DNA from: a virus
Lineage: Duplodnaviria; Heunggongvirae; Uroviricota; Caudoviricetes
Direction: 5' to 3' (one strand)
Virus record (IMG/VR): IMGVR_UViG_2731957997_000009
Length of the DNA stretch: 8,924 bases
In this document: positions 3,001 to 6,000 of the stretch, piece by piece
Layout: each line of letters starts with the position of its first letter
Numbering within the stretch: position 1 is the stretch's first letter
Made by a program: the position numbers

Positions 3001-6000
3001 ATATTCGTGAATCTTTTTATAGTTCATGTTTATCTCTATCCCTCATAGCTTTATCTACCTTAATTTACCTGCTATTAACCAAAGCTATCAAGCATTATTT
3101 TTCGCTTGAATCGAACGAGTACATCTCAAATTATATACAAAATGCAAGCGATATTAAATGGCTTGTTAAATCAGCCATAGATAATATATATAACTTCTAT
3201 AACAATCCTCCCACTGGTTTAAACCTATACAAGTGGTTACTGATTCCTTTATTAATTCTGATGTTTACCCTAACATATAAATTAAAAACAAGATCAATTT
3301 ATTTGATTTCATCAATCATTTTCATTTATATACTTCCGGTTATATTTATCGTTGTTGTTGGCTCAGGGGCGCCACCTCGCCTGTTTGTTTTAATGCCTAT
3401 AGTAGCAGTAATTTTGTTTTCTTGCTTAAGCAATTTTCGCTCTATAAAATACCTAAACTGCATGTTTTTTTTATTTATTATATTTAATGGCGTTTCAACA
3501 TCCAAAAATCTATTTTTGAATGATACTCTCGCAAGACAGAAAGATATCTCTTTAGCTAAAGAAATATCATACACATCTCAAACAAAAGGCATTTCCCTTA
3601 ACGGAAAATATATATATATATATGGTTCAAACGACTCAGGAAATATGCTCTCCATGAGCGCAGACACTTTTGGAAAATCTTTTTTTTGGTGGGATGGTGG
3701 CAACTATTTTAGGATGGTTGCATTTATGAATTACTATGGAATCTGTAATTGCAAACCAGCAAATAAAGAACAAATAGAGAAGATTTATCCAATTGTGAAG
3801 AGTTTACCTTCCTGGCCGAATCCAGATTCGATAGCTGAAATAAATGGTTTGGTGATAATAAAACTATCAGAGAAAAAAGGGTGGCTTCCATTTAATATTT
3901 AGCTTTGATAGATTTATTTATTATTAAAGAGCGCCTCCCTTTTTCAAGCTCAAAATAATACACACATCAATGGATGCAATCACAAATAGACGGAGGGGCT
4001 GAATGCCCCTTTAAATACCTTACACTCAAATATCTATATACAATCACACTAACCGTTTCTAATATTAGTCAATTAAAAAATTAGCAATACCATTTACAAG
4101 CGTTTACCCAAACTTAACACTGAGAATTGAAGTTTAACCGCCTAATTACATAACACTAGCGACTCTGCTTTTGGGAGGCATGGGTCACTCAGGCCAAATG
4201 ACATCCGACGGTTTCACGATGAACTACGGCAAAAGAATATCAGAGCCCTCATTCCTCCCCGAAAGGCTGAGGGATCCCCAGAAAATTTTCATCAGTAAGC
4301 CAGCACCATACTTCGGTAAGTGCTGGCCAACCGGCACAATATCTTTTCAGGTTGTGCTCGTCGTAGAAGTTCAGGGTTAAATCTCAGGACGTTTTCAGCC
4401 AGCGTCAGAAAAGACAATACTCTTCGTTTTTTGAGACTATTAGCCTGATACTTTAAATGAAATCCTTTATTTTCAAAATGATAACCAAGTAGCCAGAGTA
4501 CGATACTGGCCAGTGTAACCAGTAGACTTAATACCAGAAAACGCTCTCCCCTCCGACTTCTGCTCGCCCGAAGGCCAAAACCAAAGCGTTCACTTTTTTC
4601 ATCCCGAAAGTTTTGCTCTATCTGCATTCTTCGACTGTACAGTTTCATGATTTTTTTGGCATTAAACTCAGCTGTATTGCTGAATATTAACCATGGTTCT
4701 CTGCCTGCGGCTTTTTGTTCTTTTTCCGTTGTTGGTAAGCCCGGCCTCCCTCTGGCACGCCTGCTTTTTCTGCCTTTAGGTGAATGTTTATAAAGATAAA
4801 AATGTCCTTCACACTGCGAGCGTTTTTTCCGGGCCAGGGTTCCCGTCCCCAGGTATTTTGCCTCTGAACTCCCCCTGCACATTTTTATGTCCAGCCACTT
4901 ATCTTTGTCACTATCCAGCCTGAACTTCACTACCCCCCTGATACGACCAATAAAATCCCATCCCTGTGATTTGATATGACGGAACCATGCACTTTGAAAA
5001 CCAGCATCAGTAACAATAACAACACGAGTCCGGGGAGAAATGGCCCCGGAAAGCGCATCCAGAAAAGCGATTTCCACCGCCTCGTTATTTTTTTTTGACG
5101 GGAAGACCTGACTCATCAGGGGGATAGAGCGACCGTCGCAGAGGAGGCTGGCACGAAGGACATGATATTCCTGAAAAGGGTAACCGCTCCAGTCAACAGC
5201 GATAACACACCACGACAGTTTATTTGTCATCATGGATGTAATATTTTTGAATATCAGAGGGATATCATTATGAAGTCGTTTATTACCCAACAGACAGTCA
5301 ACGCGTTTTATTTTATCTTTCACGCGAGCAGGACCGGGTAAATGCCGGCCAATGCTGGTAAGAGAAAGAGATGCGCCACCGACTAAAGCAGCAGCAGAAT
5401 CAATAATGGCATTTTGTCGATACTGATGCGTGGAAGCTAAAGCATTACGGAAAAAAGTCTGGCATACTTTACGGGCAGGCATAGAGGTGATCTCATTGAA
5501 TTTGTTAGCGCAATCAGTAGATCACAAAACTCTATGCCTGTCTTCTTTTCTGGGGATTCCTCAGCCTAAAAGGGAGCGGGCTCTGGTCTGGTGAGTATGC
5601 AGATCGTAAAGGCTATGACCATGGTGCGAGAGTGGCAGGTATGCCAGAAAGAGGATGTATTGCCTGAAACTCTAACCTGATGCAGAGACGATTATCTTGA
5701 ACCTGATTTATTCAACAAAGCCGCTGGCAGAATGTTACGAAAGTTATCGCGGCCGCAGGCTGATTTGATATCGATACTATCGGTGGTTCTGCGGAAGTAA
5801 ATGCCTATATAGTGCGACTTTGAAAAATAATAAATTAATATTGAACTCGTTGATTAATAATCATAAACTTTCAGGCATTCATATTTGCAATGAGTGTTTA
5901 AAAATCACACAAAACTGGAGAGCCTACTTTAAATGTATAATAACAAAATCGACAGCAACAGAAAAATAAGACATGATTGGGTTGATGCTTTAAAATTTCT

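What the first reader, a model, noticed from the sequence alone, without database searches (positions are those of the whole stretch)
4258..5573. IS10-like element between gtrC and the acyltransferase, with a GATC in its inside-end repeat
The element looks complete: 19-bp terminal inverted repeats with one mismatch and an intact 396-aa transposase with the DDE blocks. The flanking 9-bp direct repeats match at only 7 of 9 positions, suggesting either an old insertion with later drift or a rearrangement through the element. By analogy with IS10, whose activity is coupled to Dam methylation, note a GATC inside the inside-end repeat (4273-4276, within ggatcc) and two GATC sites just upstream of the transposase start (5489-5492, 5520-5523). 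The insertion separates the gtr operon from the acyltransferase gene.
Basis: partly seen in the sequence, partly recalled or inferred. Interest (0 to 1): 0.4.

Follow-up and report, generated by a model that had tools for sequence, protein, structure and literature searches.

The report
ISSfl9, an IS10-like insertion sequence

Summary
The element is 4267-5564 (1298 bp). It has 19-bp terminal inverted repeats with one mismatch, an intact 396-aa DDE transposase (4292-5482, minus strand) and 9-bp flanks (4258-4266, 5565-5573) that match at 7 of 9. NCBI annotation names it ISSfl9 (IS4 family). The same insertion is in phage SfII (gene SfII_26), S. flexneri and three E. coli genomes.

Fifteen uninterrupted homologous sites all read ...CCTC CCCGAAAGG GAGCGGG.... 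The 9-bp duplication is therefore real, the flanks were contiguous (no rearrangement), and the right-hand copy later changed CG to TA.

The target lies in the loop of a small palindrome inside a decayed IS903-like remnant, which already separated gtrII from the acyltransferase.

The IS10 analogy holds well:
- 35% protein identity, with the catalytic residues aligned.
- Terminal 13-mers that differ from IS10's by one or two bases.
- A GATC at positions 7-10 of the transposase-distal end only, as at IS10's inside end. This is kept in 13 of 13 family members sampled.
- A conserved stem-loop, with compensatory changes, that encloses the start codon.

Dam control is a well-supported inference but is untested. 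The element is already known, so interest is low.

The parts
4267..5564 (-). ISSfl9 element body, 1298 bp (IS4 family, IS10-like); the transposase reads on the minus strand
   Evidence: The ends are defined by the empty-site comparison and by relatives that share the same termini. PGAP names it 'IS4-like element ISSfl9 family transposase'.
4267..4285 (.). Transposase-distal terminal inverted repeat CTGAGGGATCCCCAGAAAA, the counterpart of IS10's inside end, with a GATC at 4273-4276 (positions 7-10 from the tip)
   Evidence: The GATC at positions 7-10 is kept in 13 of 13 family members. IS10's inside end reads CTGAGAGATCCCC.
5546..5564 (.). Transposase-proximal terminal inverted repeat (reverse complement CTGAGGAATCCCCAGAAAA), the counterpart of IS10's outside end; it has no GATC because position 7 is A
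   Evidence: 12 of 13 family members read GAATCC here. IS10's outside end reads CTGATGAATCCCC.
4292..5482 (-). Transposase gene, 396 aa, intact; catalytic D97, D159, E289 and Y282, R285, K296
   Evidence: An identical 396-aa protein is on record as the ISSfl9 family transposase / 'ISSfl3 ORF' of S. flexneri (P0001).
4258..4266 (.). Left copy of the 9-bp target-site duplication, CCCGAAAGG (identical to the empty site)
5565..5573 (.). Right copy of the 9-bp target-site duplication, CCTAAAAGG (derived; CG changed to TA)
   Evidence: The same two changes are in every filled copy examined.
5476..5540 (-). Conserved stem-loop in the transposase leader. The outer stem is 5530-5540 paired with 5476-5486 (11 bp, covering the ATG at 5480-5482). 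The inner stem is 5519-5525 paired with 5487-5493 (7 bp, carrying the two GATC sites).
   Evidence: inverted repeat I19. RNAalifold predicts it independently. 97% of cells are paired, 3 pairs show compensatory change, and 0 of 500 shuffles reach the observed value. z = -5.1 sense and -6.2 antisense.
5474..5556 (+). Inferred RNA-OUT-like antisense RNA (about 75-80 nt): a candidate extended -10 (TGGCATACT) lies just upstream of this span at 5460-5468, then the same stem-loop and a U-rich tail (UCUUCUUUUCU)
   Evidence: Inference and from the conserved A-run in alignment A7. There is no Rfam RNA-OUT match. No expression data exist.
4189..4266 (+). Left part of the decayed IS903-like (IS5 family) remnant that received the insertion
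   Evidence: 100% identical to a PGAP 'IS5/IS1182 family transposase' pseudogene in 8 E. coli genomes. Colinear with IS903B.
5574..5722 (+). Right part of the IS903-like remnant, ending in the IS903 terminal repeat CTGATTTATTCAACAAAGCC (5703-5722)

Best explanation
The region holds one intact copy of ISSfl9, a 1298-bp insertion sequence of the IS4 family and a close functional relative of IS10.

Shown:
- It inserted once, with a 9-bp staggered cut, into the sequence CCCGAAAGG. That sequence forms the loop and inner stem of a small palindrome (CTCCC-CGAAA-GGGAG) inside a decayed IS903-like remnant lying between gtrII and the SfII acyltransferase gene.
- That single event is inherited by phage SfII, S. 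flexneri and a few E. coli.
- The right-hand duplicate later changed CG to TA.

Inferred by homology with IS10:
- A DDE transposase (D97, D159, E289) excises the element by cut-and-paste and joins it to a symmetric target.
- The GATC at positions 7-10 of the transposase-distal end makes that end a poor substrate when fully Dam-methylated. A second GATC, at the upstream edge of a weak candidate -10 (GATCTACT), lowers transposase transcription. Activity would therefore be confined to the hemimethylated period just after replication.
- An 18-bp interrupted stem sequesters the start codon in any transcript that enters from outside the element.
- The same palindrome, read outwards, gives a stem-loop antisense RNA that would repress translation in trans.
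For: Identity and distribution.

Empty site and duplication: eight E. coli genomes, four IMG/VR contigs and three metagenome contigs carry ...CATTCCTC CCCGAAAGG GAGCGGGCTCTGG... with no IS. The junction is colinear with IS903B.

Relation to IS10, compared with a real IS10 from plasmid R27:
- 35% identity over 357 aa, E 2e-67.
- Catalytic and YREK residues aligned.
- The terminal 13-mers differ by one base (proximal vs IS10 outside end) and two bases (distal vs IS10 inside end). One relative has IS10's inside-end 13-mer exactly and another has its outside-end 13-mer exactly.
- IS10 has only two GATC sites, one in the leader and one at inside-end positions 7-10. ISSfl9 has three, two in the leader and one at distal-end positions 7-10.

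Conservation among 13 distinct elements (61-100% identical in protein): distal GATC in 13/13, proximal end without GATC in 12/13, first leader GATC in 13/13, second in 11/13.

Stem-loop: predicted de novo by RNAalifold. It shows compensatory changes at 3 pairs, is 97% paired against 32-43% for slid controls, and no shuffle of 500 reaches the observed score. z-scores are -5.1 and -6.2. The IS10 leader folds into the same layout, with the ATG in the 3' arm and the GATC in the inner 5' arm.

IS10 facts used: the Dam site overlaps the pIN -10, and RNA-OUT is a 69-nt antisense RNA that ends at nt 47 (PMC5006887).

Symmetric target: 13 of 16 reconstructed insertion sites of the family have a perfect stem of at least 4 bp centred on the duplication, against 2.7% of control positions.
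Against: - No experiment on ISSfl9 exists in the searchable literature.
- The promoter scan found no sigma-70 consensus site in the element. The proposed pIN (AAGACA-17-TCTACT) and pOUT (TGGCATACT) were read by eye and are weak.
- Rfam's RNA-OUT model does not match.
- One relative, in Pseudescherichia vulneris, has GATC at both ends, so the end asymmetry is not absolute.
- Intact ISSfl9 was found at only one locus, and the only other near-identical copies (about 96%) are truncated plasmid copies. Nothing shows this copy is still mobile.
- The two adjacent substitutions in the right duplicate are an unusual form of 'drift'. A Dickeya relative shows the same pattern at the same two positions. 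This is unexplained.
Confidence: 0.85

Rival explanations
1. The 7/9 flanks reflect a rearrangement through the element. Two ISSfl9 copies at different sites recombined, so the left and right flanks come from different places.
For: The flanks differ in divergence from the empty-site allele. The left side is 99.3-100% identical (gtrAB and 4189-4266). The right side is 96.7-98.2% identical.
Against: In 15 uninterrupted sequences the left and right flanks are directly contiguous, with one CCCGAAAGG between them. The joined sequence is colinear with the IS903B transposase gene. No allele with CCTAAAAGG at the empty site was found in E. coli genomes, IMG/VR or metagenomes, using patterns that allowed either form. 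No second ISSfl9 locus was found to act as a partner.
Confidence: 0.04
2. The true element is longer than the reader thought. Its ends would lie about 12 bp or more further out, because the inverted repeat extends to 31-45 bp, and the '9-bp direct repeats' would be internal to the terminal repeats.
For: the repeat finder reports 31-nt arms at 4255-4285 and 5546-5576. A 96%-identical plasmid copy stays similar to the window for about 13 bp beyond 5564. The flanks next to the transposase-proximal end look alike in several unrelated insertions.
Against: The empty site shows that everything outside 4267-5564, except one 9-mer, is pre-existing target DNA. The outer symmetry is the target's own palindrome, CAGAGCCC...CTCCC-CGAAA-GGGAG.GGGCTCTG. 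Similar flanks in other insertions reflect a shared preference for CCC-N(3-5)-GGG or CGC-N-GCG hairpin tips.
Confidence: 0.01
3. The element is a fixed relic. The conserved GATC sites and leader stem no longer act here, because ISSfl9 is transpositionally dead in these hosts.
For: It is single-copy and always at the same locus. The transposase is frameshifted in E. coli FDAARGOS_144. The other near-identical copies lack the distal end. One duplicate has mutated.
Against: In the window the ORF, both ends, all three GATC sites and the stem are intact and match the family consensus. Relatives have several copies per genome with perfect duplications, so the family design is active.
Confidence: 0.1

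Closest known systems
ISSfl9 (ISfinder/PGAP name; 'ISSfl3 ORF' in older S. flexneri annotation; SfII_26 in phage SfII KC736978)
   Same: Identical 396-aa transposase (P0001). The DNA, flanks included, is 99.4-99.7% identical in phage SfII and three E. coli genomes, and two more sources (S. flexneri SFBU1023 and E. coli ECMA0423) carry an identical transposase and the same junction sequences.
   Different: Nothing of substance. The window's copy is intact, whereas E. coli FDAARGOS_144 has a frameshift. The SfII GenBank record carries a cluster of probable sequencing errors in the leader.
IS10 (IS10R of Tn10; PGAP 'ISVsa5/IS10A family')
   Same: - IS4 family, with a DDE plus YREK catalytic core aligned residue for residue.
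- 9-bp duplication of a symmetric target.
- Terminal 13-mers nearly identical.
- GATC at positions 7-10 of the transposase-distal end only.
- GATC in the leader.
- A palindrome that places the ATG in its 3' arm.
   Different: - Only 35% protein identity.
- 1298 bp against 1329 bp, and the ATG at nt 83 against nt 108.
- Two leader GATC sites rather than one.
- No sequence or Rfam similarity in the RNA-OUT region.
- The antisense stem is followed by a U-run, which IS10 lacks.
- The target preference looks like CCC/CGC-loop-GGG/GCG hairpin tips rather than NGCTNAGCN, although one Yersinia insertion sits in CGCTGAGCG.
IS1330-like elements of Yersinia, Serratia, Pectobacterium, Dickeya, Salmonella and S. 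boydii
   Same: 61-78% identical transposases of 393-405 aa. They share the same termini, the same distal GATC, the same leader stem, and 9-bp (or apparently 10-bp) duplications at hairpin tips.
   Different: A subgroup carries an 11-nt insertion between the proximal repeat and the stem (1310-1312 bp). These elements have several copies per genome, whereas ISSfl9 was seen at one locus.
REP/palindrome-targeting insertion sequences (e.g. IS4-family ISRm22, IS1397)
   Same: They insert into short GC-rich extragenic palindromes (PMC1525189).
   Different: The sites here are terminator-like hairpins, plus one palindrome inside an IS903 remnant, not a defined REP family. No biochemical evidence of structure recognition exists.

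Membership tests
IS4 family (DDE transposase with YREK motif) | Transposase with a DDE_Tnp_1 domain that scores above the curated IS4 family cut-off | tested here: met
   Pfam PF01609 at 70.5 bits, cut-off 23. NCBIfam NF033591 transpos_IS4_2 at 362 bits, cut-off 152.
IS4 family (DDE transposase with YREK motif) | Catalytic D, D, E and the Y-(2)-R-(3)-E-(6)-K signature | tested here: met
   D97, D159, E289, Y282, R285 and K296 align to IS10 D97, D161, E292, Y285, R288 and K299. The IS10 residue numbers come from established knowledge.
IS10 group | Significant full-length similarity to the IS10 transposase | tested here: met
   35% identity over 357 aa, E 2e-67, against the IS10 of plasmid R27.
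IS10 group | Termini of the form CTGA..(G/A)ATCCCC | tested here: met
   CTGAGGAATCCCC and CTGAGGGATCCCC, against IS10 CTGATGAATCCCC and CTGAGAGATCCCC.
IS10 group | 9-bp target-site duplication | tested here: met
   The empty site carries one CCCGAAAGG and the filled site carries two 9-mers. Perfect 9-bp duplications occur in relatives L005, L019, L021, L022, L034 and L035.
IS10 group | Dam (GATC) site in the transposase-distal end and in the transposase promoter region | tested here: met
   The sequence feature is present and conserved. Its regulatory effect was not tested.
IS10 group | Dam-dependent transposition and transposase expression | not testable with these tools
   This needs dam+/dam- genetics. 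No paper mentioning ISSfl9 was found in the searched library.
IS10 group | RNA-OUT antisense RNA | tested here: inconclusive
   No Rfam RNA-OUT match. A conserved, covarying stem-loop with a U-tail on the antisense strand sits at the equivalent place. There are no expression data.
ISSfl9 (named element) | Near-identity to the reference ISSfl9 in sequence and length | tested here: inconclusive
   PGAP assigns the name to identical proteins. ISfinder itself could not be queried, so the reference length and termini were not compared directly.

The most novel reading that the evidence does not exclude
The ISSfl9/IS1330 branch of the IS10 group may select targets by structure, inserting at the tip of GC-rich hairpins that are often bidirectional terminators. 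The odd 7/9 duplications may be a footprint of that mode. Two adjacent changes at positions 6-7 of the transposase-proximal copy, CG to TA in the window and CG to AA in a Dickeya copy, could reflect error-prone gap repair or selection against a new hairpin abutting the transposase-proximal end, rather than random drift.
Probability: 0.12. Interest if true: 0.4.

Novelty: already known. Interest (0 to 1): 0.15.

Why it matters
It matters little for discovery. The element is catalogued, and its presence in SfII was noted in 2013.

It has three practical uses:
- It fixes the exact boundaries and target of ISSfl9 in the SfII O-antigen modification module, between gtrII (serotype 2) and oacD (6-O-acetylation of GlcNAc).
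- It shows that the module's intergenic region is a stack of nested IS debris, which is useful for serotyping by sequence and for assembly.
- It shows that IS10's asymmetric Dam-site design and its start-codon-sequestering palindrome are conserved across a wide enterobacterial IS clade. The classic IS10 regulatory model should therefore transfer to these unstudied elements.

Tried and rejected
1. A longer element with 31-45-bp inverted repeats. Rejected after the empty site showed that the outer symmetry belongs to the target.

2. A templated (quasi-palindrome) origin for the CG-to-TA change. No direct or inverted copy of the mutated sequence of 8 nt or more lies near it in the window.

3. A pre-existing CCTAAAAGG allele of the target. 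Degenerate-pattern scans of IMG/VR and of the metagenomes, plus BLAST of 5,426 E. coli genomes, found only CCCGAAAGG.

4. Rfam search for RNA-OUT or any other family inside the IS. Nothing matched.

5. Consensus promoter scan. No hits in 4150-5750, so the promoter assignments remain by eye.

6. PDB sequence search with the transposase. No hit at E <= 0.01.

7. Literature searches for ISSfl9 (0 papers) and IS1330 (4 incidental mentions). The oacD paper PMC4187690 is not held.

8. Strand assignment of the stem from G-U versus A-C pairs. Both kinds occur, so it could not be decided.
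Full report
**What is there**

The stretch 4267-5564 is a 1298-bp insertion sequence. Its two tips are CTGAGGGATCCCCAGAAAA (4267-4285) and the reverse complement of CTGAGGAATCCCCAGAAAA (5546-5564). This is a 19-bp inverted repeat with one mismatch at position 7.

A single ORF of 396 aa runs on the minus strand from 5482 to 4292. It matches Pfam DDE_Tnp_1 and, far above its cut-off, the NCBIfam IS4-family model NF033591.

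The 9-mers outside the tips are CCCGAAAGG (4258-4266) and CCTAAAAGG (5565-5573), identical at 7 of 9. GATC occurs at 4273, 5489 and 5520 and nowhere else in the element. Every factual statement in the finding is therefore correct.

**Name and distribution**

NCBI's pipeline calls the protein 'IS4-like element ISSfl9 family transposase'.

- The same DNA, flanks included, is 99.4-99.7% identical in Shigella phage SfII (KC736978, gene SfII_26) and three of 5,426 complete E. coli genomes.
- S. flexneri SFBU1023 and E. coli ECMA0423 carry an identical transposase and the same junction sequences.
- Two IMG/VR prophage contigs carry the same two junction sequences.
- The SfII genome announcement lists SfII_26 as a transposase unique to SfII (PMC3772137).
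- The neighbouring acyltransferase corresponds to SfII_25. The literature cites the SfII acyltransferase gene as oacD, which 6-O-acetylates GlcNAc (Sun et al. 2014, cited in PMC8952252).
- The other near-identical copies (about 96%) sit on plasmids and have lost the distal 100 bp.

**Boundaries and the 7/9 repeats**

The repeat finder extends the inverted repeat to 31 nt, and by eye to about 45 nt. A plasmid copy also stays similar for about 13 bp beyond 5564. That raised the possibility that the real ends lie further out.

The empty site settles the question. E. coli AR_0061 and seven other E. coli genomes, four IMG/VR contigs and three metagenome contigs carry the homologous prophage segment without the IS. 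It reads ...CAGAGCCCTCATTCCTC CCCGAAAGG GAGCGGGCTCTGG....

The consequences are these:
- The outer symmetry belongs to the target, which is a palindrome: CAGAGCCC ... CTCCC-CGAAA-GGGAG . GGGCTCTG.
- The left 9-mer equals the target. The right 9-mer has CG changed to TA in every filled copy, so the change happened once, at or after the single insertion event.
- The two flanks were contiguous, which rules out rearrangement through the element.

No allele with TA at the empty site was found, although the search patterns allowed it. No nearby sequence could have templated the change.

**Context**

The target lies inside a decayed IS903-like (IS5 family) remnant at 4189-4266 and 5574-5722. The remnant ends in the IS903 terminal repeat at 5703-5722 and is colinear with IS903B across the insertion point. 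This remnant already sat between the gtr genes and the acyltransferase in relatives that lack ISSfl9. The IS therefore widened an existing gap rather than creating one.

**Relation to IS10**

I recovered a real IS10 from plasmid R27 and compared the two.

- The transposases are 35% identical over 357 aa (E 2e-67). IS10's D97, D161, E292, Y285, R288 and K299 align to D97, D159, E289, Y282, R285 and K296.
- The terminal 13-mers are CTGATGAATCCCC (IS10 outside end) against CTGAGGAATCCCC (ISSfl9 proximal end), and CTGAGAGATCCCC (IS10 inside end) against CTGAGGGATCCCC (ISSfl9 distal end).
- In both elements the only terminal GATC is at positions 7-10 of the transposase-distal end, and the G/A difference at position 7 is what removes it from the other end.
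- IS10 has two GATC sites in all and ISSfl9 has three, all at these regulatory places.

**Family survey**

The protein search finds hundreds of 393-405-aa relatives in Enterobacterales, including one labelled IS1330. I fetched DNA for 13 distinct elements, 61-100% identical in protein.

| Feature | Members with it |
|---|---|
| Distal-end GATC | 13 of 13 |
| GAATC (no GATC) at the proximal end | 12 of 13 |
| First leader GATC | 13 of 13 |
| Second leader GATC | 11 of 13 |

The exception at the proximal end is the Pseudescherichia vulneris element, which has GATC at both ends.

This conservation, together with the established IS10 mechanism, makes Dam coupling of ISSfl9 a well-founded inference. 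In IS10 the Dam site overlaps the pIN -10 (PMC5006887). From established knowledge, Roberts et al. 1985 showed a second Dam site in the inside end. The coupling remains untested for ISSfl9.

**Leader structure**

Numbering from the proximal tip, nt 25-35 (CAGGCATAGAG) pair with nt 79-89 (CTCTATGCCTG), and the second arm contains the ATG at nt 83-85. Nt 40-46 pair with nt 72-78, and these two arms carry the two GATC sites.

- RNAalifold predicts this fold on a 15-sequence alignment without guidance.
- 97% of cells pair, against 32-43% when the partners are slid.
- Three pairs show compensatory double changes, and no shuffle of 500 reaches the observed covariation.
- The z-scores are -5.1 (sense) and -6.2 (antisense).
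- The IS10 leader folds the same way, with the ATG in the 3' arm.

The likely reading follows the IS10 model.
- Transcripts entering from outside carry both arms and cannot be translated.
- The element's own weak promoter starts inside the loop and frees the ATG. The candidate is -35 AAGACA, a 17-nt spacer, and -10 TCTACT, with a GATC abutting the -10 as in IS10.
- On the other strand the same palindrome is followed by UCUUCUUUUCU and preceded by a candidate extended -10 (TGGCATACT, 5460-5468). It would give an antisense RNA of about 75-80 nt.

The promoters are assigned by eye. The consensus scan found none and Rfam RNA-OUT does not match.

**Target choice**

For 16 insertions of the family I rebuilt the empty site. 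In 13 of them a perfect stem of at least 4 bp is centred on the duplication (median 5 bp, up to 14 bp), against 2.7% of control positions in the same loci. Many of these sites look like bidirectional terminators.

This fits a symmetric target consensus, as in IS10, or true hairpin recognition. Survival bias for intergenic sites may also contribute. Palindrome targeting is already known for another IS4-family element, ISRm22 (PMC1525189).

**Left unexplained**

- A Dickeya copy (L020) also has a 7/9 duplication. Its two adjacent mismatches fall at the same positions 6-7, with CG in the distal copy and AA in the proximal copy.
- Several relatives show apparent 10-bp duplications, or a 1-nt uncertainty at one end.

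**Verdict**

The element is already known, so interest is low.

Noticed in passing
window 4189-4266 and 5574-5722: A decayed IS903-like (IS5 family) remnant, with an internal deletion relative to IS903B and an intact terminal repeat at 5703-5722, lies between gtrII and the acyltransferase. ISSfl9 is nested inside it. Identity to other gtr cassettes starts exactly at 4189, so the remnant may mark a cassette-exchange junction.
   Followed up: partly
L020 (Dickeya chrysanthemi Ech1591 CP001655, 4294910-4297103): A relative has a 7/9 duplication, CCTGAAAGG (proximal) against CCTGACGGG (distal). The two adjacent mismatches fall at the same positions 6-7 as in the window, and again CG is in the distal copy. 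L019 and L020 sit in two copies of one repeated hairpin sequence, in opposite orientations.
   Followed up: partly
L018, L025-L027, L033, L040-L042: These relatives show identical 10-mers on both sides (for example CGCTTCGGCG). This means either a 10-bp duplication or one extra base at an element end. All such sites are palindromes with an even-length loop. The 1310-1312-bp subgroup also has an 11-nt insertion after the proximal repeat.
   Followed up: no
L025-L027 (Serratia plymuthica), L040-L042 (Limnobaculum parvum): Several copies per genome are each inserted in the loop of what looks like a bidirectional intrinsic terminator, for example AAAAATGCCGCGTATGCGGCATTTTT.
   Followed up: partly
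L011 5418-5480 (phage SfII KC736978): The GenBank SfII record differs from all other copies by a cluster of G-to-T changes and a 2-nt insertion in the IS leader and flank. These are probably sequencing errors, and they would break the conserved stem.
   Followed up: no
L028-L031 (Pantoea stewartii plasmids): An ISSfl9-like element is truncated at its leader by an IS903-type terminal repeat (TTATTCAACAAAGCC|GATCTACTG). This is the reverse nesting of what is seen in the window.
   Followed up: no
window 116-493 and 521-895: A C-terminal fragment of an IS3-family (rve) transposase is followed by only the C-terminal part of a phage integrase. In phage SfII the integrase is complete, so the window appears to come from a defective, IS-truncated SfII-type prophage.
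   Followed up: no
window 7786-7962 (minus strand): A sub-threshold Rfam match to IS009 (52.9 bits, gathering score 117, E 4e-10) lies inside the tail-fibre assembly gene.
   Followed up: no
window 6983-7010: A perfect bidirectional terminator, AAAAAGGCGCAATTAATTGCGCCTTTTT, sits right after the acyltransferase stop codon. It gives weak STnc40-like Rfam hits on both strands.
   Followed up: no
window 4320-4337 (plus strand): A terminator-like hairpin followed by a T-run lies inside the distal end of the IS, antisense to the transposase 3' end. It is annotated as a putative terminator in the SfII record. It would stop transcription that reads from gtrII into the element.
   Followed up: no
L001 (E. 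coli FDAARGOS_144): In this E. coli copy of the same module, both gtrII and the ISSfl9 transposase are annotated as frameshifted.
   Followed up: no
L009 (E. coli AR_0061) 2938-5053: In the empty-site genomes the homologous acyltransferase gene is itself split by a full IS903B, and gtrC is a different (DUF6056) type.
   Followed up: no
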